A stretch of DNA of 64,000 bases from Saccostrea echinata. Lineage: Eukaryota. Shown here piece after piece: positions 28,395 through 58,359 of this stretch. A program made the position numbers and the translations under genes. The notes under the pieces were generated by a model. The model had not been told where the DNA came from. It saw nothing but the letters and a program-made list of their open reading frames with translations, and made no database searches. Location: NCBI RefSeq assembly GCF_033153115.1, contig NW_026889790.1, positions 3,596,001 through 3,660,000 of the forward strand. Reading direction: 5' to 3'. Within the stretch, counting starts at the first letter, position 1. Each line of letters begins with the position of its first letter.

Positions 28395-31365
28395 TTATGT
28401 TCCCAGATTGACCAGCAGTGGGTGGGTCATGTTTTTTATCATGATGCCTTGTATTCTTGTCAGTGTAGCAGTCTGTATTTTGCTGAATTCATATTGGAGT
28501 GATCGTTGGTAAGAGTACAAAGCAGCCTCGAGATTCGGAGGGTCTGACATCTGCTGACAAATCCCCAGGATCTGCCATGATATGTCTTTAAGATGTAGGG
28601 CTACGTACTTTCCCTCATCATAATGCACTAAGGTATATAGATCATCTAAAGCTGTGTGTGCTCTTGTCATGTCAACATGTCTACTGCACAAAAAATCCAA
28701 CATGTGCAAGAGGACAAAGGGTGGTACCAATAGTCCATCCCTTTGTCCTGGTATAGTACACTGTAGTTCCATCATTAATTCATTGATGTAACAGATATCA
28801 GCCAGAAGCATAATGTCGTGAGCTACAGCCTTTCTCATCTTTGTAGACCAGGTCTGTCCTCTTAGCGCCTCTCTATACCTCTCTGCGTCCACGTGTACCC
28901 AATACATAACAAATGGTTTTGATAGTCTGGCCTTTGACATCTCTATCACAGTTAAGGCTTTCTGGTACCTAAATGTCTTGTAATAATACATAGCAATGTA
29001 TAACATGTAAGAAATTAACCCAAACTTGGCTGTTACTTTCAACATATAACATGACATTTTGTCAGCGACGTACACCAGTTTATTAATACCAGTGTATGCG
29101 TACTTGGTATGCAACATAAATGCAGCTAAGTATAGTGTATAGGCTATCATATTTTGTAACATGACAATTTCATACGATGAAGCTGATGAAGCTATCAATT
29201 GTTCGATTTTTTGAAGATATTTCAAACATTGTTGAAAGTCTGCATTGCGTAGATCAAACTGTCTTAAATTACAGAATACATCAGTATCAAATTCGACTTC
29301 AGACGTCACGTAACGTTCATCTGTAAAAACGAAACCCCTAGGATTGTAGAGAACCTTTATGATATGTGATCTTATGGAAGGACTCTGTAACAGAGATGCC
29401 AACCCGGTCACGTATAATGAATGTAACCATAAAAATAACCTATTTTGTGCTTCCCCATATATCTTCACTAAAAACATATTGTTTTGAGGAATGAAAAAGT
29501 TTGGACAGATCCCATCGTACACCCACTGTAGGATGACTTTAAAACAGATCCAGAAACACTCCAAAAGATTCTGTGGACACCAGCAGGAAATGATGTTTTT
29601 CTGAATCACCCAAAACACTGCTGTTTTCATGTGATAGGAACAAAGCAGTTTGCTATTGTTTTCTGATCCTTCGTTATCTTCAAACTGGTGATTTAAGACC
29701 TCTTTCAGGAACAATTTTAACAATCCATAAACCAGGAACTGGCAGTGGTTCATCGAGTACACAAGTTTCTGTTCTGCCAGAGAAAAAGAAATTCTCCATT
29801 CTTTACTTTGATGGAGCCCTAGTGGATGTCCAATTGGTACCAAGTGGCATCCTCTCTTAACTATATCTCTTACAACTTGAGCTGGAGGCCACACGTGACA
29901 TCTCTCTATCCATAACGAGGCAGCTGGAGGCCAAAAGTCAGAGGCAAGACAGTAAGCATTATCAAAATCTATTCCAATTACATTTCCACTTCCACAGGGT
30001 CCACTGAAAGTAGAAATTTGGAATTTAGAACACATAATTTCCTTGTATACTGAACTAGAAATATAAAATCTTCTATTTTTCATGAAACAGGCCAAGAAAA
30101 TATCTCTGTTCCAAGGTGGTGTCAGTATCTGAAGCAGAGAAAATCCTGGTGGACTTTCAGAAGAATCAGAGATAATTATTGTTTTTCCATTTATATTTTG
30201 AAATTGACGCCGGTCCCAGATTACCCGATGATCAGTAGGCCAAAACATTCTGTCTACATCGGATCCTGTCAAATTGAACCCTTCTCGTCTACTTCCACTC
30301 AGCATATACCTCGTGTTGTTATTGGCTTTCCCTTGTCTTTTCACTGTCTCATTAATGTCCGCCATATTTCTCCTCATGGCAACTTGTTGTGAGGTTCCTA
30401 TTTTGTGACACAATCCAACAAACACAGATTCCGAAATGTGCTGGATTCCTTCATATCTGAGAGAAAAAGTAAAATACATTTTTAGAATAAAAATTGAAAG
30501 GCAGTGAGGAGTATATGATATGAATATTGAAAATTGCTCTGTCGTATTTATATGTCCATTGCGACAAATGAATTTCCATTCTCAATTGTATGAACTCTAG
30601 TCCACTGTTGCTTCGAATTTTAAGAATCTCTCAGCATTTTTTTTATATGGGGACTCAGGTTTGACTGTACGTCGATCCACCTCCCCTAAAACCTTACGTA
30701 TTGTAAAATCTTTAAATCACTTTGCAATGATGTAGTAATATATTTAATAAATTCAAACGGATATTTCAAACCAATTGTTAGGCCTTTGTTTTTATACTAA
30801 GTGTGACTACGGCTTATTCCATCTACTTGTTCAATACATAGGGTCATTTGACGTGTGCGACCAGTCAACAGGGGATGCTTACTCCTCCAATGCACCTGAT
30901 CCCACATCTGGAAATTCCATGGGCCCCCGTTTTATGCGTGTTCACAGATTTGTATTGTTTGTCGGTTAAAGGTTATGCTACGATAAATCAGACAAAGGTC
31001 CTCAGATACATCTCACCAGTGGGAGAGTTCTCCATGACCAATTATGGGTTCGAACCAGGAACGCAAGAATATTTCTTAACATCGAGATTTTGAATAAAAG
31101 GTGAAATTGAACCTTACATTCCGGATTGTAAGTATGTTCACAGGAACTCTTTTCCGTATATTTTATACCCATAGATTACAAACTTGCCATGGCATGATGC
31201 CAATAAATGCTTAAAAGCAGACAGGAATAAATTTTTAGTACAGGAAACAAAACAGAAATAAGGTAATCAATCCTTTAAACAATTATATTCCCCATAGATA
31301 AGGACGAGGGATTCACCAAGTTGTATAGAATAGTGCACTTACAGAGTCGGTGGTAAAGAAGCCAT
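28395..31365 (-). CDS. Mab-21/cGAS-like receptor (cGLR) nucleotidyltransferase with helical, TPR-like C-terminus, ~694 aa. Exons 31343-31365 and 28395-30456
   Basis: NTase motif SGSRREGFNLTGSDVD, third Asp in DFDNAYCL, Mab-21 motifs GCHLVPIG, WRISFSLAE, LCSYHMKTAVFW, CPNFFIP. Mini-exon ATG GCT TCT TTA CCA CCG ACT CT|GTAAGT (phase 2) matches the phase-2 acceptor ttctctcag|A at 30456. Confidence 0.9.
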
Positions 31366-32739
31366 TTTCTTCGATCAGAGAAAATTTTCAAAGCTAATAT
31401 TGGCTCTGGGAAATTTATCCGGTAATTTAAACATTACACTTTCAGTTTGTATTTTCTATTGGAGCTTTAATAGATATGCACAAATGTCTATTACATTTAC
31501 CCCAATTCATTGCTTGCCTTATTCACAAAATGACTTAATGGTCTATTGGTCTTTCAGTTGATCAGTCATAACCGTAGCGTACGAAGTGGAAGCTATAGTT
31601 AACGACATTAATCTATATGTAACATCTCTAAACCATGGTTTACGTCTAAATATTTACATTGCATTTGCATTTTTTCCCTTAATATTCTTTGCAAATTAGA
31701 AAAAGATCATTTTCTCATGAACTACCACGGACGAGCAAGAATATTTCCACTGTGAAGACGATGTCTTAACTATAGTGCAAACTGTTTTGTTTTAAAAATG
31801 ATCATTGAATGACCTAAAATTGTGTCAAGTCATCAGGCAAATAATGTAAATATATAAGAATTTAATGTAATTTTTGAGAATTCATGAGGTCCATGAACTA
31901 CAACGCTCGCATTTTCATCATGAAGTATTATACCGCTCTTCATGAAATGTACAGGCTTGAAGTGTCGCAGTTCATATATCCTCATGTGTTGACAATACTG
32001 TCGCTCTTTAGGATTCTAATGCAGGTTCGAAGCGTTTGGAGATTTCATATTTGGTCCAAGGTTCTGTTGGCCAGTTTTAACACGAAAATAATATGCTTTG
32101 GAATAAAAAAAATTCAGTAGAAGGTTTGGAAATTTTAATCAAAACATTCGATCGTCAAAGACGCAGTGAGAATAAATCAACTCTGTGATTTACTATGCCG
32201 TTGCAGAAAAAAATAACCCGCGTAATATTTCTTTGCAATAGCTGCGACGTTTATTTCCGTTTTTACAAATAAAGAAAGGCATTTTATTGTTTATATTTAT
32301 GTCTGTGTTATAAAACAATGAAAGTTGAATATGTTAAATATTGTATCATAGATGTGTGTGTCAGTGTATGCATAATTGACTGAAGCGCCGTTGCTCAAGA
32401 AATCTTTTGCGGGTGTCTTTAAATTCTTAGCAGCGTTAACTGACTGATAAACGGCAATGGTTTTCAGAAGAAATAAAGGAAATAATATTTAGTGGATGTA
32501 AATATTTATGTATTACCTGTGATAAAGAAGAAATTTTAAATATATAGAAGTTGGCTCTGGGACGATTGAAATCCAAATCATATTTGCTTGTTTGCTTAAC
32601 GGCCTTTTGATGATTTTTTCAACAAACTCGTTTAAAGTCGGCATTTCTATGGTCGCTATTATGACCTTGTTAGCAAATATAACCTATCATAGGGTGGTAA
32701 TTTGGCTGACTTGTTTCATATCAAATGTTAGGCCTTTGT

Positions 32740-34009
32740 TTTTATGCCCCCGGATCGAAAGATCCCGGTGGTATATTGTTTTTGTCCTGTCTGTCTGTTT
32801 TTCTGTTTATCTGTTTGTCTGTTGTCAACTTTAACCTTGCCCATAACTTTTGATTGGTTGGAGCTATGACTTTCATATTTCACATGTGTATTCCTTGTGA
32901 CTAGACCTTTCTTTGGGTACCATCATATTTACCTTTTGACCTTGCCCTTGGAGTTTGACCCACTTTTGCAAAATTTTATGAGACTTTAACCTTGGCCATA
33001 ACTTCTGAACAATTGGTGCCTGGGGTTTCAAACTTCACGTGTGTATTGTTTGTGACAAGGCCTTCCTTTGGATACCAACAACTTTGACCCTTTGACCTTG
33101 ATCTAGGAGTGTGACCTACTTTTGAAAAACTTTAACCTTGGCCATAACTTTTGAACAGTTGGAGCTTGGGGTTTCAAAATTCACATGTGTATTCCTTGTG
33201 ACAGGACCTTCCTCTGGATATCAACCTCTTTGACCCTTTGACCTTGATCTAGGAGTGTGACCTACTTTTGAAAAACTTTAACCTTGGCCATAACTTTTGA
33301 ACGGTTAGAGCTAGGGCTTTCATACTTCAAATATGTAATCCTTGTGACAAGACCTTCCTTTGGATACCAACCACTTTGACCTTTGACCTTGACCTAGGTG
33401 TTTGACCTACTTTTGAAAAACTTTAACCTTGGCCATAACTTTTGAATGGTTGTTGCTAGGGCTTTCATACTTCACATATGTAATCCTTGTGACATCACCT
33501 TCCTTTGGATACCAACCACTTTGACCCTTTGACCTTGACATAGGAGTTTGACCTACTTTTGAAAAACTTTAACCTTGGCCATAATTTTTGAATGGTTGGT
33601 GCTAGGGCTTTCATACTTCACATACGTAGTCCTTGTGACAAGACCTTCCTTTGCATACCAACCACTTTGACCCTTTGACATTGACATAGGAGTTTGACCT
33701 ACTTTCGAAAAACTTTAATCTTGGCCATAACTTTTGAATGGTTGGTGCTAGGGCTTTCATACTTTACATATGTAATCCTTGTGACAAGACCTTCCTTTGG
33801 ATATCAACAACTTTGACCTTGACCTTGATGTTTTACTTACTTTTAAAAAACTTTAACCTTCGCCATTACTCTTGAACAGTTGCAGCAAGGGCTTTCAAAT
33901 TTAACATTTTTTATCTTTTGGCCTGGATTTTGACTTGCATTTGAGAAACTTTAACCTTCGCCATAAGCTGCCATACGGGGGCATCAGTGTTTCACCAACA
34001 CATCTTGTT
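32740..34009 (+). mobile_element. Non-autonomous Helentron/pearl-type element with ~146-bp tandem core (~7 units), inserted in a Penelope-like fragment (32626-32739 + 34010-34232)
   Basis: Starts ttttatgcccccggatcgaaagatcc, then (tctg)n; period 145-146 (tttaaccttg at 33131, 33277, 33422, 33568); ends ggggcatcagtgtttcaccaacacatcttgtt. Confidence 0.85.
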
Positions 34010-34493
34010 ATTTCTGATTTTAGACTGAATTAGACACCGGAATATTCCGTCTGCCTGATCAATACATGGGGCTCACGGCGGGTGTGACCAGTCAACAGGG
34101 GATGCTAACTCCTCCAAGGCACCTGATCCCACCTCTGAAATTTCTAGGGGCCGTGTTTTACGCGCTCTCCACATTTTTTTTTATATAGATTTTTTGATAT
34201 CGATCACTGTTCGTTATATTCACCCTTTTCACTCATTATTGATAAATTATTGTTATTTTAACTTGACAAAATAAAGGAACAATATGCATTTTCCTCTGAA
34301 GAAGTTGTCGCTCTTATCAGAGAATCAACGAACCTTAAAGAGCAAACATGAAACATCCGTTTTGCAAAACATCTACCATGCTATCAGGGGACTAATTTTC
34401 AATGAAGAACAACAAAACCAGAAAAAATGACCATACTATTACATTTGAAAAACAGAAAACATTTTGCTTAGAAAACTGGTAATGGGAATAAAT

Positions 34494-34831
34494 CTATGTC
34501 TTTGTGTACATTAAATAAATGCACGGACTATAACTAAACAACTCATTCAGTACTAATACTCTTAACACGTTGTTGTTTATTTCTTCTCTGGGTTTTTCTA
34601 CCTCCTTCGTCTCCTTGGATTCAGATGAACTCAGCATTTCTTCTTCCACCACTTCCGCCGGACTTGGAAAGTCCACGTATTCCTTTTCGATGTTGAGATC
34701 CGCCTCAGCCTCCAGGTCTCGGATTTTTTTCAGTTCATCTGAGAGCACCTGTTCCTCCACCTCGTCCTCTCTTACCTCCTCCTGTCTAAGTTCAATAACA
34801 AAAAAGACGTTACAGACGTCATCGGTGTAAC
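34494..34831 (-). CDS. Duplicated last exon of the acidic secreted protein gene (alternative last exon, paralog or pseudo-exon) with frameshifted, extended C-terminus
   Basis: ~34262-34900 is clearly homologous to ~42298-43060. Peptide GYTDDVCNVFFVIELRQEEVREDEVEEQVLSDELKKIRDL...; a 1-nt insertion near the end removes the paralog's stop codon. Confidence 0.5.
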
Positions 34832-36269
34832 CTGTCAGAAAAATAACATATCTACATCCAGTGCAGAAAAAAATGACAGACATCATTTGTAAACCTTCAG
34901 ATAAATTAAAATTTAAAAAAAAAAATCGGTAATGCAATGCAGTCCAAGGGAATTTCCGGCAATCGCAAACACTGGCTTTGACGAGCACATATTTTAGGTG
35001 CGGATCAAAGAATTTTGTCGTTGACGGAATGCTTTTAAAGAGAGCAGCAAAACGGAAATATGAAGTGGGATATCTGCCGAAAATCTTGTCCGAAAATTTG
35101 TGTGCACCCATAACTGAAATAGAGAGGTCATTTTTTTTTATTCACGCGATAGGGCATCAATTTCGTTTCCATACCATGAAATTTCAAATAGGACAGGGGT
35201 CTAGTACAAAGGAAGAGATCACATGTTGAACCAGTGCTTGATTGTAAACTATTTGTTTGGTTTTTATTAATTTAGTTTGTACAATTAAAAGTAATTTATA
35301 CATTTCTCTTTCATTTATCAGTATAAAGTAAACTTTTCAAAACTCCAAAAGATTTATTCCTGAGCGAAGCGAGTCTTCGGGTCAGAGATTTAACAAATTA
35401 ATACACAGTACATGGTTTACACAACAAATTAAATCCTTTCTTTTCTATCCACTTCTTAAAGTTCTTTTATGCTTCTTATTATTTCGGCCACTGTACAAAA
35501 TGGAGACCTTCCGAAATGTTATTTCTGCCTGTACAGGTAGGTAGGTTTAAAAAACAGAAATATTCAAACTAAGATCTGTACGATGTATACATCAAATCAT
35601 TGTTCCTTTGGGACTTTGAAGCACTATTTGAAGTGGACATTAGTTACATATTAACAGGTTAAAAAGTGATAAATTGATATGGTAACGATGATTAGACAAA
35701 CATAAAATTTTTCACAAAACGAAAAAATCTGGATGAGAAGATAGATGTCCATCCAAGGTACATGTATATGTATTTCAGACTGAATGTCTTTCTTTGTTGA
35801 TTGGCCTTTCTTGTACATTAATAAGCGAAGCGAGAACTCAGGTAAATATCAGCATATGTAGGTTTTACCTGGTGCCTTCAAGTAATTATCTTTGTTTGAG
35901 GTGTGAACCACGTGTAAGTTGGTAAACCTCTTACGAACACCGAGTCCCTTACTTGGATTGGGGGCAATGGGCAAGTGAAAGATTAAACAGCCTACCTTTA
36001 CAACCTCACAAAGCGTAGTTAATAGAGACGTGTTAAAGGGAAACTGGAGAAGTTGCATGAATAAGAGTACAAGACGATATCTCTGCAATCTCTTGATGTG
36101 AAGAAAAACAAACAAAAAAAAGGAATTTTGAAATGAAAATTTAAAAAAATTAGACCATTGCCTTTCGTTCTATTACATAAAATTAGATGTAGCTAATGAA
36201 TAAATACCAGTGTAGTCTACAAATGGTCATTAGTCACGATTATACTGCCGGTGTAAAAGACTCAATTTT

Positions 36270-39080: not shown

Positions 39081-39622
39081 TGCAAATGAGTAGTGACAAG
39101 GTAAGGAAATCTAACGGTGCTACCCAAGGTCACACATCAAAGTTTAAGGTCAATATGCATTCTTAAATCCTGCAACTTCGAACAGTCGATTATAATACAT
39201 CGGTATTCAATCCCTTTGCTCATAAATGAGCTAACAGGGTTGAGCTAAAGGGGTTGTTTTATGCTGTAGGAAATATTTTTATAAGAGTCANNNNNNNNNN
39301 NNNNNNNNNNNNNNNNNNNNNNNNNNNNNNNNNNNNNNNNNNNNNNNNNNNNNNNNNNNNNNNNNNNNNNNNNNNNNNNNNNNNNNNNNNNNNNNNNNNN
39401 NNNNNNNNNNNNNNNNNNNNNNNNNNNNNNNNNNNNNNNNNNNNNNNNNNNNNNNNNNNNNNNNNNAATAATTTAACGGAGAACCTTATTCCACCTCCGA
39501 AATTCCAGTAATACTGGCCATTCTTATTAGTTAGTGTGGACTGATCTGATTATTTAATACAGGACTGTGATTTAATTCACTTCTATTTTCAGGGAGAAAA
39601 ATGGAGGTATGAAGCATCCAAT

Positions 39623-41245
39623 ATGTTACATCTGACAACTCAATGTAAAATACGTCAGTGTTCTCGTTGTCATGAATGTGTCTCGTACTATTGTAATACG
39701 TGCACTGAAGATATGTGTATCAGATGTAAGAAAATACATGTTCTTGATATAGATACATGTAATCATGAGGTCTTTATCTATCGTGAAAGGTATGCATCGC
39801 AGGTAAAGTTTGAGGGTTGTCCCAGACACCCAAACTCTCACTTTTCTAGATGGTGTCACACATGTAAAATTCCCGTATGTTACACCTGTATCAAAATACA
39901 TGAAAACCACGCAATTTCAGATATCAATCAAGAGTATCTAACAATCCGAGAAAAGTCTAGAGGAATTATTTCTAGAATTCGTGGTCAAAAAATTCCTAAC
40001 AATATTGCTATAAAGAAAGAAATTGAGCTGGAAATAGAAGCAGTGCCAAAGGAAGTGGACGTCTTTGGTCAAGGGTTGTACAAATCAGGAAGACAAATGA
40101 AAGGCCATACCAAAAACATCGCAAGATCTTATAATTGTGAGGATGTCAAGAGAAGATTGGTGTCTTTGTTTTGGAAACAAAAGACAAAATTGATTTGGCA
40201 AAATAAATTGTTGCAAAAAACAGAGGACATTTCTGTTTCAGCAAAAAACCCTGTTGAATTTTTACGATTCACAAAACACTTGCAAAAACGCAGATTTAGA
40301 ATTATGATTGAAGACATGCTCAAATTATCCTTTATATATGAGGAAAAAACCGTTACCAAAAATGATGTATGTCGGAAGCTAGATACCAAAGAAACAAACA
40401 TCCCAAAGAAAAGACATCCCCAAACGAATCTCATGTTAGAGTCCATGTCAACTCTATGGCTAAAGAAATCTCAAAGCGTCCCCCGTGTAAATCGCAGTGT
40501 TCACATTTCTTGTAATCCAGTAGATGGCCATTTCTGGGTGAGTGACCACGAACATATCTGTAGATCAGACAAAGATCACACACTTGAGATCGGCAGACAT
40601 GGATACGGGGAACACACGGTGACTGGTCAAGGAGAACTAATCTACATAGATCGTAATTATGATATAATTAAAGACTGTACCAAGAGAATTGTTCTGATCG
40701 ATGCAAAGGGAGGATGGAAGCCTAAGTGTATCTATTGTTCCCCTTTGACTGGAGACTTACTGGTTGGCATGGCGACAATAAATCACACAGCGGCTAAGGT
40801 AGTGCGATATCTAAGTTCTGGGGTGGAAAAACAGTCCATCCAGTATGATGACAGACAACAGGCTTTGTACACCTACCCCGCCTATGTTACGGAAAATCGT
40901 AACGGTGACATAATTGTGTCCGATAATTATGTCGTTATGGTGACTGACTATAAAGGAGGCGTTAGGTTCACTTACAGAGGGTCGCCAGATCAAGGACTCG
41001 CCCCACGGGGGGTCTGTACTGATCCATTGTTAAATATACTTGTGTGTGATTGTAGATCCCATGGTGTTCACATGCTTGATAAAGATGGAAATCTCCTAAC
41101 TGTTCTGTTACAATATGCAGAGAATTCGGCCGGTCCATGGGGTGTGAGTTATAATGAAATTGATCACGTGATATTAGTGAAAGGTGATACAAACAATAAA
41201 GTGGCGGTATATAGATATCTAAATCGAGCAAACTATTTACTTTGA
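39623..41245 (+). CDS. TRIM-like protein: two B-boxes, coiled coil, NHL-type beta-propeller (RING-less in this exon), 540 aa
   Basis: B-box1 CSRC...YYCNTCTEDMCIRCKKIH...H, B-box2 CPRH...WCHTCKIPVCYTCIKIHENH, NHL repeats (YPAYVTENRNGDIIVSD, PRGVCTDPLLNILVCD, PWGVSY). In-frame acceptor at 39593 may extend the N-terminus. Confidence 0.88.
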   Translation: MLHLTTQCKIRQCSRCHECVSYYCNTCTEDMCIRCKKIHVLDIDTCNHEVFIYRERYASQVKFEGCPRHPNSHFSRWCHTCKIPVCYTCIKIHENHAISDINQEYLTIREKSRGIISRIRGQKIPNNIAIKKEIELEIEAVPKEVDVFGQGLYKSGRQMKGHTKNIARSYNCEDVKRRLVSLFWKQKTKLIWQNKLLQKTEDISVSAKNPVEFLRFTKHLQKRRFRIMIEDMLKLSFIYEEKTVTKNDVCRKLDTKETNIPKKRHPQTNLMLESMSTLWLKKSQSVPRVNRSVHISCNPVDGHFWVSDHEHICRSDKDHTLEIGRHGYGEHTVTGQGELIYIDRNYDIIKDCTKRIVLIDAKGGWKPKCIYCSPLTGDLLVGMATINHTAAKVVRYLSSGVEKQSIQYDDRQQALYTYPAYVTENRNGDIIVSDNYVVMVTDYKGGVRFTYRGSPDQGLAPRGVCTDPLLNILVCDCRSHGVHMLDKDGNLLTVLLQYAENSAGPWGVSYNEIDHVILVKGDTNNKVAVYRYLNRANYLL

Positions 41246-41257
41246 AACTGAAAAAAA

Positions 41258-41260
<3 letters not shown>

Positions 41261-41302
<42 letters not shown>
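41261..41302. repeat. (TA)n microsatellite
   Basis: About 21 TA units just after the TRIM stop codon. Confidence 0.95.
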
Positions 41303-41306
<4 letters not shown>

Positions 41307-42629
41307 TCTGTGGATGCAAGATGCTTTCGAAACTTAAGTTATCAATAGGGGAACATTTCCAGTAAACTGAGCATTTCTTGAGGGGAGAAAACTAAAAGGG
41401 GGAAATATTTCCCTTGCTGAATATGTGATTAGAGGAAAGGAGACCATCACTAGAGGATTATCAAAGAAAGATCACATCATAAAAAAATACATTTGAAATA
41501 CTAAGTAAATATCTGAAATACATGTATCTATTATAACTTTATTAATAATAATTCCACAAGATATGCAAAGTTTATAGTATGAAAAAGGTGAAAGAAATCT
41601 CGTTATTCCTGTAAACAGTACAAAACGCAAACAGGACAAAAACATGGACCTGATATCACAAACAAACTTATATTTTACGATATTGACTTGAGTTACTTAA
41701 AAAATAGAGGAAATCCAAAGATGTGTTTTAAATGGTGAAAAATCTGAAAATGTTCTGTTCCAAAGAAAACAATATAATAAAAGGGTTTTATTTATCGATA
41801 CGTTCTACATGACTCAGGTTAGCTTTATGTCCAATGGGTCTCATATTTGAAGTATGTTTTAAGTACATACTGGCACTTGCTAGAAGACCTTCCAGGCTAA
41901 ATCATTATTTTATTACCTTGTTATCTTTCCGTAAGGTTTTAGGAAGTATTGTTATTTCTCTCGTTTCAAACATTGTTTAGGCAGATCAAATATTTTGGAA
42001 CCATTGTAGTTAATGCCACCTCTATTGGAGCCTGCCTGAATATGCAGGAAACAGTTGTTTGACAGTTAAATGATTGCGTTTAATATAATTTCCCCCCGTT
42101 TTAATTAAGTATATAACATTTTACAGCATATGATAAAGATAAATGATTACAATGACAAAATGAATTGAAGGTTCATCATCCCTCTGCTGACTCATATAAA
42201 ATTTTGCTTTAACTCTCATGTTTTTCCAGATGAAATGTATTTATAAGTAAAATGCAAACATTATAGCTTGCAGAGCAGAATTGAACAAAAATACTGAACT
42301 TGCCAAATTTATAAAGGAATAATATGCAATTATCCCTTTAAGAGTTGTCTCTCTTATCAGAGAATCAACGAACCTTAGAGAGCAAAACATAAAACATCAG
42401 TTTTGCAAAATATCTATATCTACCATGCTATCGGGGGAATAATTTTCAAGTTAGAACAACAAAACCAGAAAAAATATGACCGGAGAATTATATTTTGAAC
42501 AACAGATAACATTTTGTTTAGAAAACTGGTAATGGTAATAAATTCATGTCTTTGTGTAGAATAAATAAACTGCACTGACTTTAACTATATAAAACCCATT
42601 CAGTACTAATGTTCTCGACACTTCGTTGT

Positions 42630-44325
42630 TTATTTCTCCTCTGGGTTTTCTACCTCTTCTGTCTCCTCGGATTCAGACGAGCTCAGCATCTCTTCTTCCA
42701 CCACTTCCGCCGGACTTGGAAAGTCCACGTATTCCTTTTCGATGTTAAGATTAGCCTCGTCCTTCAGGTCTCGGATTTTTTTCAGTTCATCTGAGAGCAC
42801 CTGATCCTCCACCTCGTCCTCTCTTACCTCCTCCTGTCCTACGTCATCGGTGTAACCTGTCAGGTAATTTACATGTCTAAATTCAGTAACAAAAAAGACT
42901 TAAAACCGTGGTCATCGGTGTAACCTGTCGGAAAATTTACGTCTGAATTCAGTAAAATAAAAAAAACTTAACCAACGTCATCGGTGTGACTTGTCAGAAA
43001 ATTTACATGTCTAAATTCAGTGAGAAAAAAAATATCTGACGTCATCGGTGTAATCTGTAAGAAATACATGTCTTGATTCAGTTAAAATGAAAAAAAAAAA
43101 AAAACCCCACAATCACAGTATCAAACACGAATCTGTTTATGATATACAAATATACTTATACGAGACTGGTGGTTTAATTAACCATATAAAAGAAAAAAAA
43201 ATTCTATTACATTATTTTGAGTCAAAACTGTCAAATTGAAAATAAATTAAATCCATTTTCGTTTTATTTCATCAAAGGAGAATTTAAGCCACTAAATATG
43301 AGTATTTATTCTGTAAAACGCACCTATACCAATTATAGTCAGGAAATTCGGTTAGTCCTTAGTTAAGCGCAAGCCTCATTGAAAATAAGTCTCCTACAAA
43401 CATCTAGGTCTCATGTCTCGATAAGTATTCTTAAGAGGGCTCACAAGTATTTTTTTTTTGTTCTAGTAATCACTTCGTCCACTTTGAAAAGAAGTACAGC
43501 AAAAAGGATTTGTTTGATTTCACAATCATATTTTTAAGAACGTAAATTCTCGTGTACTATGGCAATTGCTTAGAAAAACTGAAACAACATATGGAATTAA
43601 TATAATTCTTTTCAGATTTGTAATCGAACATTCCACAAAATGTCACTTTTCCCTAATGCGTCTTATTGCTGTATTTTATCTCAATAATCAAACATAAACT
43701 CAATATTCAAATACAAAATCAAGTTACTTTAGTAAAACAACAAAACAGTTTCGCCGTAAGATCAATTTGTTCTCTATTTACCTGTTTAATTCGGTCTGTC
43801 TCTATATTTTATCTGTCTGACTGATTATATAATCGTCTTATTCCTGTTTTACCTGGGCTGTCTCTAGATTATACCCTTTCTGACATAATCTTACCTGGAT
43901 CTTTTTTTCTCTTAAGTACTTGTTATATTCTAGATATATAGATAACATGTTATTTATGCCTTTTTACCTGTCTGACATCATATTTACCTGTCTGACATCA
44001 TATTTTACCTGTCTGACATCATATTTACCTGTCTGACATCATATTTTACCTGTCTGACCTACCCGTTTAATTACAGATTTTACCTGTCTGACTCCTTACC
44101 TGGATCTTTTTTATCCTCCACGATCTCCTCCAAATGCTTGAGAAGGAAGGCTTGTTTCTCCAGAACATCCCCGATGTTGTACATTTCCTCTTGAAGATTC
44201 TTAATTTTCTTTTCGTGAGCCTCCATGGTTGTTAGTAGCACATCCACTGCCTCCTCAAGCTCTGAGACAGGGAGGGGACTAGCCCAGGCCAGGGGAAACA
44301 GTAAGCAAATCCACAGAAACAACAT
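42630..44325 (-). CDS. Acidic secreted orphan protein, ~150 aa. Exons 44100-44325 and 42630-42856
   Basis: Signal peptide MLFLWICLLFPLAWA|SPLP, heptad-like LEEAVDVLLTTMEAHEKKIKNLQEEMYNI. Phase-1 donor CCAG|GTAAG joins acceptor ctgacag|GTTACACC in frame to a Glu-rich tail. TATA-like element at ~44410-44418. Confidence 0.75.
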
Positions 44326-45045
44326 CTCTCTATCAGGTCTAGTTCATGTATGAATTTTGTGTTTGCAGCTTTGACTGAAAAGTGCTTGAGACTTGCACTT
44401 GACAAATCTTAATATAGGTGATAGCCGTGTTGGTAGAAAGGCCATTTCTCAGCAGACGTACATTTTGTCTTGTGTAAGTGAAACTAGATCTCCATATCAT
44501 GTTACTGGTGGTGTGAGTTCTGAGTGTGGGTTTTCATATTTTATTTCAATGTAATGATAATTAAAAGACATGGCAATCCAAAGAAGAACTGTACACGTAA
44601 TTAAGCCAAGACAGAATTTTTTCTGTGAAAGTCTGCACTCATAATAACAGTAATTAGCTATAGAGCAGGAAGTCAGTTCTTTGACGGACATGAAGTATTT
44701 AATTATCCTACTTTTGATGTTGGAAAACTTAAGCACTTGTTGATCCAGATTTGAATAAAGAACAAAAAAGGTACATGGCCACTTCTTGACAAGAAACACC
44801 GGTGGATACAAGTTTTGGTGTCAGGCGACATGAAACTTGATACTTGGGAGTGACACCTTCGGTGTACCTGAAATAAAATAGTCGGAAATTGGTCTGCTGC
44901 TGCAAAAAAACCTGTGTAATTATTCAGGCAGAAAACAGTAGGTATGTATATGTGATAGTTTAATGAAAATAAAGAATGAATGCACCTTAACAAAGTATAT
45001 GACGTAATGCATTACGTAATCCCATCTGCTAAAAAAGAAAAACAA

Positions 45046-45893
45046 AACAAGATGTATTTGTGGAACACTGATGCCCCCATATTGCAACTTATAGCGAAGG
45101 TTAAACTTTCTCTAATGCAAATCAAATATGTTGGTACCCAAAGTAAGTTCTTGTCCCGAGGAATATACCTGTGAAATATGAAAGCCCTAGCAGCAACCAT
45201 TTAAAAGATATGTAAAAGGTAAAAAAAATTCAAAGATAAATCAAACATCAAGGTCAAGGTCAAAATTAATGGTGCCCTAGGAAAGGCCTTCTCACAAGAA
45301 ATACACATATGAAATATGAAAGCCCTAGCACCAACCGTTCAAAAGATATGGCCAAGTTTAAAGTTTATCAAAAGTAAGTCAAACTCCAAGGTCAAAGTCA
45401 AAAGGTCAAAGCTGTTGGTATCCAAAGTAAGGTCTTGTCACAAGGATTACACATGTGAAGTATGATAGCCCTAGCACCAACCGTTCAAAAGTTATGGCCA
45501 AGGTTAAAGTTTTTCAAATGTAGGTCAAACTCCTAGATCAAGGTCAAAGGGTCAAAGTAGTTAGTATCCAAAGGAAGGTCTTGTCACAAGGACTACACAT
45601 GTGAAGTATCAAAGCCCTAGCACCAACTGTTCAAAAGTTATGGCCAAGGTTAAAGTTGGGTAAAATTTTGTAAAACTGGGTCAAACTCCAAGGTCAAGGT
45701 CAAAGGTCAAATATGATGGTACCCTAAGAAAGGTCTTGTCACAATAAATACACATGTGAAATATGAAAGCCATAGCTCCAACCAATCAAAAGTTATGGGC
45801 AATGTTAAAGTTTTTGCGGACAAACAGATAAACAGACAAACCGACAGACGGACGGACAGGGCAAAAACTATATACCCCCGAATCTTTGATACG
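45046..45893 (-). mobile_element. Non-autonomous Helentron/pearl-type element, same family as 32740-34009
   Basis: Reverse complement of the 146-bp core, (gaca/gacg)n and both termini. Confidence 0.85.
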
Positions 45894-53100: not shown

Positions 53101-55382
53101 ATTTTCATGAGGAGTAAAGAAAGCGGTTTGGTAGAACGTTTACTAGAACCCGCAATGTAAAGAAAGCGGTTTGGTAGAACATTTACTAGAACCCGCAATG
53201 TAAAGAAAGCGGCTTGGTAGAACGTTTACTAGAACCAACAATGTAAAGAAAGCGGCTTGGTAGAACATTTACTAGAACCCGCAATGTAAAGAAAGGGGCT
53301 TGGTAGAACATTTACTAGAACCCGCAATGTAAAGAAAGCGGCTTAGTAGAACGTTTACTAGAACCCGCAATGTAAAGAAAGCGGCTTGGTAGAACGTTTA
53401 CTAGAACCCGCAATGTAAAGAAAGCGGCTTGGTAGAACGTTTACTAGAACCCGCAATGTAAAGAAAGCGGCTTGGTAGAACGTTTACTAGAACCCGCAAT
53501 GTAAAGAAAGCGGCTTGGTAGAACGTTTACTAGAACCCGCAATGTAAAGAAAGCGGCTTGGTAGAACGTTTACTAGAACCCGCAATGTAAAGAAAGCGGC
53601 TTGGTAGAACGTTTACTAGAACCCGCAATGTAAAGAAAGCGGCTTGGTAGAACGTTTACTAGAACCCGCAATGTAAAGAAAGCGGCTTGGTAGAACGTTT
53701 ACTAGAACCCGCAATGTAAAGAAAGCGGCTTGGTAGAACGTTTACTAGAACCCGCAATGTAAAGAAAGCGGCTTGGTAGAACGTTTACTAGAACCCGCAA
53801 TGTAAAGAAAGCGGTTTGGTAGAACGTTTACTAGAACCCGCAATGTAAATAAAGCGGCTTGGTAGAACGTTTACTAGAACCCGCAATGTAAAGAAAGCGG
53901 CTTGGTAGAACGTTTACTAGAACCCGCAATGTAAAGAAAGCGGTTTGGTAGAACATTTACTAGAACCCGCAATGTAAAGAAAGCGGCTTGGTAGAACGTT
54001 TACTAGAACCAACAATGTAAAGAAAGCGGCTTGGTAGAACATTTACTAGAACCCGCAATGTAAAGAAAGCGGCTTGGTAGAACATTTACTAGAACCCGCA
54101 ATGTAAAGAAAGGGGCTTGGTAGAACATTTACTAGAACCCGCAATGTAAAGAAAGGGGCTTAGTAGAACGTTTACTAGAACCCGCAATGTAAATAAAGCG
54201 GCTTAGTAGAACGTTTACTAGAACCCGCAATGTAAAGAAAGCGGCTTGGTAGAACGTTTACTAGAACCCGCAATGTAAAGAAAGCGGCTTGGTAGAACGT
54301 TTACTAGAACCCGCAATGTAAAGAAAGCGGCTTGGTAGAACGTTTACTAGAACCCGCAATGTAAAGAAAGCGGCTTGGTAGAACATTTACTAGAACCCGC
54401 AATGTAAAGAAAGCGGCTTGGTAGAACATTTACTAGAACCCGCAATGTAAAGAAAGCGGCTTGGTAGAACGTTTACTAGAACCCGCAATGTAAAGAAAGC
54501 GGCTTGGTAGAACGTTTACTAGAACCCGCAATGTAAAGAAAGCGGCTTGGTAGAACATTTACTAGAACCCGCAATGTAAATAAAGCGGCTTAGTAGAACG
54601 TTTACTAGAACCCGCAATGTAAAGAAAGCGGCTTAGTAGAACATTTACTAGAACCCGCAATGTATCTCTGTAAAGATTTTTCGTGAAGTTTAGGGACCCA
54701 GTATACAATAGGTAAATCATATAGGCAGTTGGCTGTCCTTTTCTCTCTCTTAATTGTATGAATAAAAAGAGTATGGAAAAGCTTGAGTAAAAGCGTTTGA
54801 ATTGACGAAAAGCACTAGTAAAAGTTATCTTTCTTATCAACCAGCTTTAAAAAATATTCTTCCCTTTTTTCAGCAATTACACTGTATTTCGAATTTCGTT
54901 CTTGCGTTGGTGTTTTATCATGATATATAAGCGAATTTACTCGAAAGTTTTCCTGTGTTGACAAAAAATGTAATATGAAATGCAATACTTTTTTAAGACC
55001 TTAAAATGATATTTAAAAGTTATCAATATGTATGTATGGTGGTGTTGGGCGGGGAGGGGATGTATATATGGTGGTGTTGGGCGGGTGGGTGATTTTGAAC
55101 TAATATGCAATCCAATCACAGTGTTGGTGATAACCAGCTGAAAATTACGAAAGTCCAGAAGGCTCATTCGAAATTCAAATTTCGAGATTAGCCAAAAGGG
55201 CAGTAATCAAATTTTGAATCCGAATTTTGATTGGCTAATTTAGTTCTTGAATCGCGAAATTCGAATTTCGTATTTTGAATCTCGAATGAGCCTTCTGGGA
55301 TTTCGTAGAAAATACCTTCATTGTTTGTCAAGTCCCATCCTTGAAGAAGGTAGAAAGACTGAGCATGTGATAATGTCATCAT
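50105..55382 (-). CDS. Copper transporter CTR/SLC31 family, atypical paralog (CTR-A), ~245 aa. Exons 55316-55382, 51102-51198, 50105-50678; probable UTR exon ending at 59815
   Basis: MMTLSHAQSFYLLQGWDL, TM1 GLTGALLCTLVLTLIHE, TM2 HCLMAFLHVFRVYVCCLLVMSLMTYNVW, TM3 GLGSGVGY. Intron phases 1 and 2 match the neighbouring paralog. Confidence 0.85.
51850..52830 (-). mobile_element. Degenerate Penelope-like RT fragment
   Basis: Conserved 3' tail at 51960-52025 and YIDD / GISMGTSCP-like segments on the minus strand. Confidence 0.65.
52436..52617. mobile_element. MITE with 5-bp TSD (ACATC) nested in the retroelement fragment
   Basis: TIRs cataggcatcggaa / ttccgacgcctatg; acatc on both flanks. Confidence 0.85.
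53114..54663. repeat. Homogeneous 43-bp minisatellite, ~36 copies, intronic in CTR-A
   Basis: Unit gtaaagaaagcggcttggtagaacgtttactagaacccgcaat; no spacers. Confidence 0.95.
55146..55307. mobile_element. TA-flanked MITE 8 nt from a CTR-A splice donor
   Basis: tacgaaagtccagaaggctcattcga / tcgaatgagccttctgggatttcgta inverted repeats. Confidence 0.7.
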
Positions 55383-56137: not shown

Positions 56138-56704
56138 CATATGGAAATAAAGAAGTTATGATGAATTAAAACGAAATAGCATAAATTGCTTAAAATGTTA
56201 TATATCGTGATACACAGTGTTTGTACAGCGATACAGTATATTTTTTGTGTATTGCGTTATATCGGTATATCGATAAGACCCTAGACTAATTTGCACCATT
56301 GGTATTTCCCGACCAACCCTGAACTAATAGGTATTTGTGAAAAGAACCTTGGCTAAAACTATTTTTCATATCATAATGCAGTTTGTCGAGACGAATTATT
56401 TTCAATTTCATATCAATTTTTTTTTTTGTTTTTCTATTCCATGTGAGGTCACACAATAATAAAAAAAATCTACAATTGCATAAATGTCAAAATTCAAACT
56501 TTGATAGTTATTTCATGATGATCATTTAAAAAAATCAACCAAAAAAGTAATCTGATGCAGGGCAGACACACAGACCGAAAATTTAAGGAAAGTTGGAAGG
56601 GTATAAAAATACGTTAAAAAAAACAATGGAAATTCTAAGAACCTCATACGTCATTTAAACCATCTACGAGATACTTCCGCGAGACATTTCAATGTGTTTG
56701 TATT

Positions 56705-57028
56705 TTTTATGCCCCCGTATCGAAGATTCGGGGGTATATAGTTTTTGCTCTGTCCGTCCGTCTGTCTGTCTGTTTGTCCGCAAAAACTTTAACATTGCCC
56801 ATTACTTTTGATTGGTTGGAGCTATGGCTTTTATATTTCACATGTGTATTCCTTGCGACAAGACCTTTCTTTGGGTACCATCATATTTGACCCTGACCAT
56901 GGAGTTCGACCCAGTTTTGCAAAATTTTACCAATTTTTACCTTGGTCATAACTTTTGAACAGTTAGTGCTAGGGGAATCATACTTCAAATATGTAATCCT
57001 TGTAACAATACCAACAACTTTGACCCTT

Positions 57029-57059
<31 letters not shown>

Positions 57060-57305
57060 GGAAAACTTTAACGTTGGCCATAACTTTTGAACAGTTGGTG
57101 CTAGGCTTTCATACTTCACATATGTAATCCTTGTGAAAAGACCTTCCTTTGGATACCAACAACTTTTACCCATTGACCTTGGACTTTGACCTACTTTTGA
57201 AAAACTTTAACCTTGGCCATAACATTTGAACGGTTGATGCTAGGGCTTTCATACTTCACATATGTAATCCTTGTGACAAGACCTTTCTTTGGATACCAAC
57301 AACTT

Positions 57306-57336
<31 letters not shown>

Positions 57337-57640
57337 GGAAAACTTTAACCTTGGCCATAACTTTTGAACGATTTGTGCTATGGCTTTCATATTTCACATG
57401 TGTATTTATTGTAAGAAGGCCTTTCCTTGGGCACCATTAATTTTGACCATTTGACCTAGACCGTGATGTTTGACTTACTTTTGAAAAACTTTTTCCATAT
57501 CTATTCAATGGTTGCTGCTAGGGCTTTCATATTTCACAGGTATATTTCTCGAGACGAGACCTTATTTTTGATAGCGACACATTTGATTTGCATTTGAGAA
57601 AGTTTAACCTTTGCTGTGAGTTGCCATACGGGAGTGTTTC
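56705..57640 (+). mobile_element. Non-autonomous Helentron/pearl-type element, third copy of the 146-bp-core family
   Basis: ttttatgcccccgtatcgaagattcggggg, (tctg)n, repeated tttaaccttggccataacttttgaac cores. Confidence 0.85.
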
Positions 57641-58359
57641 ATCTACTTTATTTCATAAATGAAAATATTCGATGACACCACATGTACCGATAGTAATTTT
57701 CGAGTAGTGATACAAATTTTAACTAATTTTGCAACTTGAATTCGGAATACAAACATGCTTTTAACTAATATGTAATCGACATGATGTTACTTAAGCACCG
57801 GGACATGTTTGCAGGTCACGAAAGAGGTTTGATAAGACACTTTAAAAGATGGAAAAACTTCATTATCTTTCAGAAATAAGTAAATGTTCAGAATTACTCA
57901 GTGTATGTCAAATCCAGTTTGAATATTTATTGACAAAGTTTTCATTTTATCTTATTGAATTAGTGGTAAATTAAATATTCATTGAGTGGGGCATCCTAAC
58001 AGGTCTTAGTTTCAATGGATGTCCTTATCGACTCTTTGAACGAAGGTTTTCATCAAAACTGTTACATCTTAAAGTGAGTCATAGAACGATCCTGTGAAAT
58101 TCCATAGAGCTCGAGAAAATACCTCTTGCTATTGAATGTGTTTCTTTGTTACAAAGCAGAAAACGACGTTATTCCCGAAAATTATGGTCTTTCAATGTGG
58201 GAAATAGTAGGTTTAAACCTTTGGAAGAATATTTATTTCTGTTATAATATTATCGATAAGAAATGACCCTTTATTTTCATATACAACATTGCATGTTTAT
58301 CAACAGAACTTTGCTAGAAATTTTAGCTGAACATGGATTAAAAGTACATTTACTTGATG

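What the first reader, a model, noticed from the sequence alone, without database searches (positions are those of the whole stretch)
34775..34900. Echo acceptor apparently rescues the duplicated exon in frame after loss of the original acceptor
Relative to the 42.8-kb copy, this copy lacks 39 nt (42839-42877, bounded by TGTC microhomology) containing the proximal acceptor. The next echo acceptor (ttttctgacag|GTTACACCGATGACGTC at 34831) has the same phase and reads openly into the exon, adding former intron as CNVFFVIELR. Inference: this would be a direct example of echoes working as spare splice sites and exonising intron sequence. The direction of the indel is not proven.
Basis: partly seen in the sequence, partly recalled or inferred. 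Interest (0 to 1): 0.7.

Follow-up and report, generated by a model that had tools for sequence, protein, structure and literature searches.

The report
Orphan exon copy with spare acceptor
A stray copy of an oyster gene's last exon lost its splice signal in a 39-base deletion, and a repeated copy of that signal sits upstream in the same reading frame, but this is likely a chance arrangement in a dead fragment rather than a working rescue.

Summary
The sequence observation is right. 34260-34925 (copy B) duplicates the last exon of a two-exon oyster gene (A). B lacks 39 nt holding the true acceptor, between TGTC microhomologies, and the echo acceptor at 34831 is in frame and open. The indel is now polarised as a deletion in B: 30 of 30 spliced homologues have A's junction.

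Rescue is not shown. Contigs join 44100 to 42856 in 4 of 4 runs, with poly(A) at 41525. B lies 6.7 kb beyond that, past a convergent B-box/NHL gene. The genome has one exon 1. The echo product would put ten residues in place of a glycine that is fixed from Saccostrea to Pinctada. B is also frameshifted, and two out-of-frame AGs now sit next to the exon body. An in-frame, open echo arises by chance about 1 time in 5. One point against this reading: dN/dS of A versus B is 0.165, which hints at past constraint or conversion.

The echoes are known 'mirage' repeats, and spare-site use is published for human F7 donors. This scan has noted such repeats before, in this genome and in others. Likely a pseudo-exon; low interest.

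The parts
34260..34925 (-). Copy B: partial duplicate of gene A's acceptor-echo array, last exon and about 330 nt of 3' UTR (matches A 42297-43100); no exon 1, no distal UTR
   Evidence: 86% over 34260-34786
34785..34831 (-). Echo acceptor (first exon base 34831) and the stretch it would add before the exon body; in frame with a phase-1 donor; use not shown
34832..34894 (-). Second, more decayed echo acceptor (first base 34894), also in frame and open
34781..34787 (-). Deletion junction (single TGTC at 34783-34786); leaves TTAG|34785 (needs phase 2) and ACAG|34781 (needs phase 0), both out of frame with exon 1, next to the purine-rich exon body
34593..34597 (-). +1 frameshift in an A-run five codons before A's stop; B's frame runs on about 30 more codons to a stop at 34494-34496
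34494..35141 (-). 215-codon open frame running through B into unique upstream DNA (ATG at 35111); no Pfam match, not in the protein collection
35863..35876 (-).
39545..41245 (+). Intact 566-codon B-box/NHL (TRIM-NHL-like) frame lying between A and B, tail to tail with A, covered by contigs
   Evidence: contig 39467-41333
41525..42629 (-). Gene A 3' UTR; AATAAA at 41543, poly(A) loose end at 41525
   Evidence: (X2, X3)
42630..42856 (-). Gene A exon 2 coding part; true acceptor at 42856
42839..42877 (-). The 39 nt present in A and deleted in B
42857..43110 (-). Acceptor-side mirage of A: three upstream copies of the intron/exon-2 border at 42924, 42990 (AG changed to AA) and 43054; units 64-68 nt, 69-77% alike
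43774..44099 (-). Donor-side mirage of A: ten further AG|GT sites after the true donor
44100..44325 (-). Gene A exon 1 coding part (75 codons plus 1 nt, phase-1 donor); the only exon-1 match in the genome

Best explanation
Copy B is a duplicate of gene A's last exon that lost its true acceptor in a 39-nt deletion and is likely a non-productive pseudo-exon, with the in-frame echo acceptor likely there by chance. Shown: the duplication, the deletion and its direction, the frame, A's splice junction and poly(A) site, the intervening gene and the frameshift. Inferred: a segmental duplication copied the mirage array, exon 2 and part of the UTR about 8 kb downstream. B then stayed constrained or was partly gene-converted for a time, and suffered a microhomology-mediated deletion and a +1 slip (order unknown). 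A's transcripts are cleaved at 41525, so B is likely seldom reached. In a read-through RNA, exon definition would likely favour the out-of-frame AGs at 34785/34781 beside the purine-rich exon body as much as the echo.
For: Contigs join 44100 to 42856 in 4 of 4 runs (2 samples, 1 study), and poly-T loose ends stand at 41525 in 2 of 4, with AATAAA at 41543. An intact opposite-strand B-box/NHL gene and many repeats lie between that site and B. The genome search gives one exon-1 match and two exon-2 matches. The A-only product equals RefSeq XP_061192739.1, the only member of its cluster. The junction motif GY.[DE][DE].G.EE keeps its spacing in 30 of 30 spliced full-length homologues, including Pinctada; the echo product would replace that Gly with ten residues. 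B carries a +1 frameshift. Its duplicated UTR has no AATAAA or ATTAAA; the first downstream are ATTAAA at 33719 and AATAAA at 32288, though weaker hexamers stand at 34220 and 34185. Chance of in frame and open is about 0.19. In A the used acceptor is the one followed by 76% purines, against 42% after the two unused echoes scored. In B that context follows 34785/34781 (76%, 74%), not 34831 (44%). Against S. cucullata, B has 5 private amino-acid changes and A has 1 (binomial p 0.22, not significant).
Against: dN/dS between A and B is 0.165 (6 N, 8 S, 63 codons): p 0.0025 against omega 1 and p 0.059 against omega 0.5. A B branch neutral from birth predicts 10.6-18.6 replacements, against 5-6 seen. 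Both B echoes (34831, 34894) are in frame, and the frame stays open 103 codons upstream, which about 1.3% of window positions do. One 156-nt contig of depth 2.8 matches B exactly at 34443-34598 in X1 (A differs there by 21 letters), so B sequence is present in a probable RNA library, strand and origin unknown. The 34831 acceptor has a better pyrimidine tract (60%) than A's true acceptor (45%). In human F7 the next repeat copy does take over when the first donor is lost (PMC1557585). Only 2 samples of unknown tissue could be examined.
Confidence: 0.62

Rival explanations
1. One reading: B is a minor alternative last exon of gene A. In some tissue or stage, transcription would pass 41525 and exon 1 would splice to the echo at 34831 (or 34894), giving a longer isoform with exonised intron and a new tail.
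For: 34831 and 34894 are phase-matched and open. dN/dS is 0.165. A B-exact contig lies at 34443-34598 in X1. F7 precedent on the donor side.
Against: Poly(A) at 41525 and a convergent gene in between. The junction motif would be broken. Frameshift. No protein with the insert among the hits of three searches (weak, as the databases hold few Saccostrea transcriptomes). Frame match expected about 19% of the time.
Confidence: 0.13
2. B is the relic of a once functional, larger duplicate (gene or alternative exon). The echo did serve as acceptor for a time after the deletion, and the 5' part was later lost to insertions.
For: Low dN/dS. A faint match of 36101-36202 to A's intron at 43190-43298 (score 51; 0 of 40 shuffles and 0 of 152 control windows reach it; T-rich) suggests the duplicate was once longer.
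Against: No trace of exon 1 upstream of B. Constraint could predate the deletion or reflect conversion: identical tracts of 72 and 56 nt if site 34752 is set aside (p 0.0001, post hoc; p 0.035 with it; third positions alone p 0.016-0.22).
Confidence: 0.13
3. B was recruited into a new gene independent of A: either spliced from the 35869 donor, or as an intronless 205-codon frame from the ATG at 35111, in which case no acceptor is needed.
For: The 215-codon open frame. Four short contigs of depth 2-3 lie between 34443 and 35595. 35869 is one of only 2 AG|GTAA sites on this strand between 34900 and 41525. The upstream DNA is unique in the genome.
Against: No Pfam match for either frame. The 205-aa protein is not in the collection, and the longer-protein search found none among 783 candidates. 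The added N-terminus is Phe-rich, like translated AT-rich DNA (sequence inspection).
Confidence: 0.06
4. The 39 nt were inserted in A, and B keeps the ancestral exon start.
For: The 39 nt resemble the neighbouring echo unit, so a local duplication is conceivable.
Against: All 30 spliced homologues from Saccostrea cucullata, Ostrea, Magallana and Pinctada have A's junction. B keeps the 5' half of a repeat unit fused to the exon body.
Confidence: 0.02

Closest known systems
Amphioxus 'mirage' minisatellites (Adh3; globins BflGb6, BflGb9; PMC3087553, passages read)
   Same: Head-to-tail copies spanning an intron-exon border, many but not all keeping AG/GT; normal splicing uses the authentic site; both 5' and 3' borders can be copied. 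The paper already proposes that a repeat's cryptic signals could be recruited.
   Different: Here the units are few (3-4) and old (62-77% alike), both ends of one intron are echoed, and a duplicate of the exon has lost its authentic acceptor, which sets up a natural test.
Human F7 IVS7 37-bp VNTR pseudo-donors (PMC1557585; abstract, Introduction and first Results section read)
   Same: Repeated splice sites are silent until the authentic one is lost; then the next copy is used and a short piece of intron is retained.
   Different: F7 is donor-side, with identical copies, shown by RT-PCR, and pathogenic. Here it is acceptor-side, with diverged copies, in a duplicated exon, and use is not shown.
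Internal tandem repeats altering paralogue structure in human segmental duplications (PMC2812944, 4 passages read)
   Same: Repeats at exon-intron borders of recent duplicates activate cryptic sites and change gene structure.
   Different: Those cases have transcript support and mostly create introns; B is a lone exon copy.
Tandem exon duplication giving alternative or mutually exclusive exons (PMC9013439, PMC5589949; search listing only)
   Same: A homologous exon copy downstream in the same orientation and phase.
   Different: B lies beyond the poly(A) site and another gene, has lost its acceptor and is frameshifted.
Oyster secreted acidic coiled-coil-like protein family (XP_061192739.1, XP_062575774.1, XP_048760001.2, XP_052687348.1, KAK3090121.1)
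   Same: Gene A is this family's member; its spliced product equals XP_061192739.1.
   Different: Function undescribed: no Pfam family passes cut-off, no Atlas hit, no paper with five family accessions.

Membership tests
Mirage repeat | Tandem copies that span an intron-exon border | tested here: met
   Four acceptor units in A and three in B, each with the intron end plus the first 14-20 nt of exon 2; donor copies after exon 1
Mirage repeat | Many but not all units keep AG/GT | tested here: met
   AG kept at 42924, 43054, 34831 and 34894; changed to AA at 42990
Mirage repeat | Regular splicing uses the authentic site | tested here: met
   Joint 44100/42856 in 4 of 4 runs; 190 weaker joints were not shown, so minor use of A's echoes is not excluded
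Mirage repeat | Copy-number instability between haplotypes | not testable with these tools
   One assembly only; A and B differ (4 versus 3 units)
Spare splice site of the F7 type | Authentic site lost | tested here: met
   39-nt deletion, polarised by homologues
Spare splice site of the F7 type | Next repeat copy used in transcripts | tested here: inconclusive
   Assembled contigs of 2 samples only; they show presence, not absence
Alternative last exon from exon duplication | Homologous exon copy in the same orientation and phase | tested here: met
Alternative last exon from exon duplication | Spliced to an upstream exon of the same gene | tested here: inconclusive
   see Tried and rejected
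Alternative last exon from exon duplication | Own polyadenylation signal | tested here: inconclusive
   No AATAAA or ATTAAA in the duplicated UTR; weaker hexamers at 34220 and 34185; ATTAAA at 33719, AATAAA at 32288
Alternative last exon from exon duplication | Purifying selection on the copy | tested here: inconclusive
   omega 0.165, but a frameshift, 5 private replacements and possible conversion
Pseudo-exon / duplicated gene fragment | Disabling lesions and no 5' part | tested here: met
   Acceptor deletion, frameshift, no second exon 1
Pseudo-exon / duplicated gene fragment | No productive transcript in any tissue | not testable with these tools
   Needs raw stranded reads from many tissues

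The most novel reading that the evidence does not exclude
After a deletion removed its acceptor, a duplicated last exon was kept alive by the next mirage copy. Exon 1 skips gene A's poly(A) site and a convergent gene, splices to 34831 or 34894, and yields a second secreted isoform with exonised intron inside the family's most conserved motif and a new hydrophobic tail. That would be a natural, acceptor-side case of mirage repeats acting as spare splice sites in evolution.
Probability: 0.13. Interest if true: 0.58.

Novelty: new member of a known kind. Interest (0 to 1): 0.2.

Why it matters
Mirage repeats have been proposed to supply new splice sites (PMC3087553), and takeover by the next copy is shown for a mutant human donor (PMC1557585). 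My searches listed no natural acceptor-side case. This locus is a ready-made pair for a minigene test: the same array with (A) and without (B) its authentic acceptor, plus competing AGs, so it could show whether exon context or the nearest intact repeat decides acceptor choice. As it stands, it is most likely a dead exon copy and changes nothing known.

Tried and rejected
RNA search: no RNA holder listed on record; 4 runs were listed as guessed RNA with small shares (2 samples, 1 study). Their contigs show a spliced joint and poly-T ends, so I treat them as RNA-derived.

Laying them on 34230-36060 at 90% likeness: no joint, no loose end at 34831, 34894 or 35869, and no cover in the bin 34788-34849 or from 35780 on, in 4 of 4 runs, while cross-laid A-type contigs reached depth 1000-3000. 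Contigs drop rare forms, a filter leaves records out, and 2 of 21 pieces were not shown, so this is not counted as evidence of silence. No silent control stretch and no DNA run could be laid (cap reached).

The B-type base at 34752 on contigs of depth about 300 in X2 was considered as B expression and rejected: the listed contigs at 34609-34751 are A-type, and S. cucullata has the same residue, so it is likely an allele of A.

Contigs at 39467-41333 were first read as read-through of A, then reassigned to the plus-strand B-box/NHL gene.

Searches for a second exon 1: none. Upstream match 35738-35841 to 44563-44676 rejected: 14 of 150 control windows score as high. Protein searches for a B isoform: 2 hits of 22 candidates, 10 of 356 and 0 of 783, none with the insert. 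Metagenome scan for outgroup genomic DNA: 453 pattern matches, 0 confirmed. Pfam and Atlas for gene A: nothing usable. Scan notes near this place, by sequence and for relatives: none. No splice-site scoring model was available, so acceptor strength rests on simple pyrimidine and purine counts. No outgroup genome was available to date B or to polarise synonymous changes.

Full report
Setting. The window is G000:C41:3596001-3660000 of a 923-Mb genome. On the minus strand lies a two-exon gene, here called A. Exon 1 codes 75 residues and ends in a phase-1 donor at 44100; exon 2 starts at 42856 and stops at 42630. The spliced product equals RefSeq XP_061192739.1, 150 aa, named by NCBI as an uncharacterized protein of Saccostrea echinata. 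It has a hydrophobic N-terminus, likely a signal peptide (my inference; UniRef calls the Pinctada homologue 'Secreted protein'), and an acidic tail. No Pfam family passes its cut-off. Contigs of four coded runs (2 samples, 1 study; RNA status is a guess by the tool) join 44100 to 42856 in 4 of 4 runs at depth 238-2309, and show poly-T loose ends at 41525 in 2 of 4, with AATAAA at 41543.

The echoes. The border of the intron and exon 2 is repeated upstream at 42924, 42990 (AG changed to AA) and 43054, in units of 64-68 nt that are 69-77% alike. The donor is echoed too, by ten further AG|GT sites down to 43782. This fits the 'mirage' repeats described in amphioxus (PMC3087553, seven passages read). 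I took that name and the two key papers from earlier scan notes and read the papers myself.

The observation. Copy B (34260 to about 34925) matches A 42297-43100: the echo array, the coding exon and about 330 nt of UTR. It lacks 42839-42877, which is 21 nt of intron and 18 nt of exon with the true acceptor, between two TGTC; one TGTC remains at 34783-34786. The echo at 34831 needs a phase-1 donor and reads open for 111 codons, with CNVFFVIELR in place of one Gly.

Direction of the indel. The other 30 are spliced full-length homologues, from S. echinata, S. cucullata, Ostrea edulis, Magallana gigas, M. angulata, Pinctada imbricata and unnamed sources; many are alleles of one Magallana gene. All 30 have GY.[DE][DE].G.EE with A's spacing (the regex printed a shorter spacer for P0034, but the alignment shows the same spacing). 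B also keeps half a repeat unit fused to the exon body. So the 39 nt were deleted in B.

Is the frame match more than chance? One frame in three, times 0.575 for nine open codons measured in this window, gives about 0.19. In A the same echo is 68 nt away and out of frame, so the match in B rests on a 2-nt difference in unit length. A second B echo at 34894 is also in frame, and the frame stays open for 103 codons to 35141, as about 1.3% of window positions do. That extra openness runs well beyond the duplicate and is not predicted by the rescue model; it is the basis of a minor rival.

Can B be reached, and would the product be a rescue? The genome search gives one exon-1 match and two exon-2 matches. 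There is no exon-1 likeness upstream of B, including at the 35869 donor. From exon 1, an RNA must pass the poly(A) site at 41525, an intact plus-strand B-box/NHL frame at 39545-41245 that is covered by contigs, and about 3 kb of repeats. On arrival, the deletion has placed TTAG|34785 and ACAG|34781 directly before the purine-rich exon body, and both are out of frame. In A the used acceptor is the one followed by 76% purines, against 42% after the two unused echoes scored. In B that context belongs to 34785/34781, not to 34831 (44%). Reading this as exon definition is my inference. Even if 34831 were used, the insert would split the motif that is fixed in all 30 homologues, and a +1 slip at 34593-34597 replaces the last five residues with a tail of about 35. 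The duplicated UTR lacks AATAAA and ATTAAA.

Results against my reading. A and B differ by 6 nonsynonymous and 8 synonymous changes in 63 codons: omega 0.165, p 0.0025 against 1 and p 0.059 against 0.5. The UTR differs at 40 of 313 sites. A B branch neutral from birth predicts 10.6-18.6 replacements; 5-6 are seen. So B was probably constrained or partly converted for some of its history. The differences cluster, but the clustering test depends on one site set aside after the fact. One contig of depth 2.8 matches B exactly at 34443-34598 in X1; three others of depth 2-3 lie at 35078-35595; strand and origin are unknown. The 34831 site has a better pyrimidine tract than A's true acceptor. In human F7 the next repeat copy does take over when the first donor is lost (PMC1557585: abstract, Introduction and first Results section read). 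The attempt to see a junction at 34831 is told under Tried and rejected and is not used as evidence.

Mechanism, with odds. Most likely (0.62) B is now a pseudo-exon: segmental duplication, a period of constraint or conversion, then a microhomology-mediated deletion and a slip, with the in-frame echo a by-product. Rivals: a minor alternative last exon through the echo (0.13); a past rescue in a duplicate that has since decayed (0.13; a faint intron remnant at 36101-36202 supports a once longer duplicate); a new gene from 35869 or ATG 35111 (0.06); insertion in A (0.02).

Comparison and novelty. The array meets three of four mirage features; copy-number instability could not be tested. The spare-site model meets 'authentic site lost' but not yet 'next copy used'. 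Repeats that reshape the structure of duplicated genes are described in humans (PMC2812944, 4 passages). Apparent splice-site shifts often shrink on re-annotation (PMC5010894, 12 of 23 passages). PMC9013439 and PMC5589949 were seen as search listings only. My searches listed no natural acceptor-side rescue by a mirage, and one search found no paper with five family accessions. The library lacks most subscription papers, and I read no supplements. The scan has noted mirage-type repeats repeatedly, including twice in this genome; I did not check those windows.

Verdict. Observation confirmed and indel polarised; rescue not shown and unlikely. New member of a known kind; interest 0.2. If the junction were found, interest would be about 0.58.

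Noticed in passing
window 39545-41245 (+): Intact 566-codon B-box/NHL (TRIM-NHL-like) frame, tail to tail with gene A (contig end 41333 versus poly(A) 41525); acceptor-like TTTCAG near 39590; 5' exon not located; a 42-nt perfect palindrome at 41261-41302.
   Followed up: partly
window 28395-30581 (-): Single 728-codon frame with Mab-21 and Mab-21_C domains (cGAS-like receptor type; the label cGAS-like is recalled, the domains are).
   Followed up: partly
window 43774-44099 (-): Donor-side echoes: five near-identical 20-21 nt units and a copy of the exon-1 end at 43895-43907, so one intron is echoed at both ends.
   Followed up: partly
window 42804 / 34752: Contigs of X2 show both bases at this exon-2 site (depth about 300 versus 1300-1500); the minor one matches B and the S. 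cucullata residue, likely an allele of A.
   Followed up: partly
window 36101-36202 versus 43190-43298: Faint T-rich likeness to A's intron, above 152 of 152 control windows; may mark a once longer duplicate split by a 1.2-kb unique insert.
   Followed up: partly
proteins P0004-P0036: The exon-junction motif GY.[DE][DE].G.EE is the best conserved part out to Pinctada; a Tyr among acidic residues in a likely secreted protein could be a sulfation site (recalled rule, untested). Three database proteins (P0014, P0033, P0035) read on from exon 1 without exon 2.
   Followed up: no
window 35191-35480: An X4 contig differs from the assembly at 18 of 290 letters, while neighbouring contigs of other runs match almost exactly; a divergent haplotype of the DNA upstream of B.
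   Followed up: no
window 32739-34009, 45076-45893, 56704-57641: Three copies of an element with an internal tandem repeat of about 146 nt; one lies just beyond B's 3' end.
   Followed up: no
window 15095-16403, 19949-21251, 53114-54664: Tandem arrays with periods of about 32, 166 and 86 nt; the last is 96-97% homogeneous.
   Followed up: no
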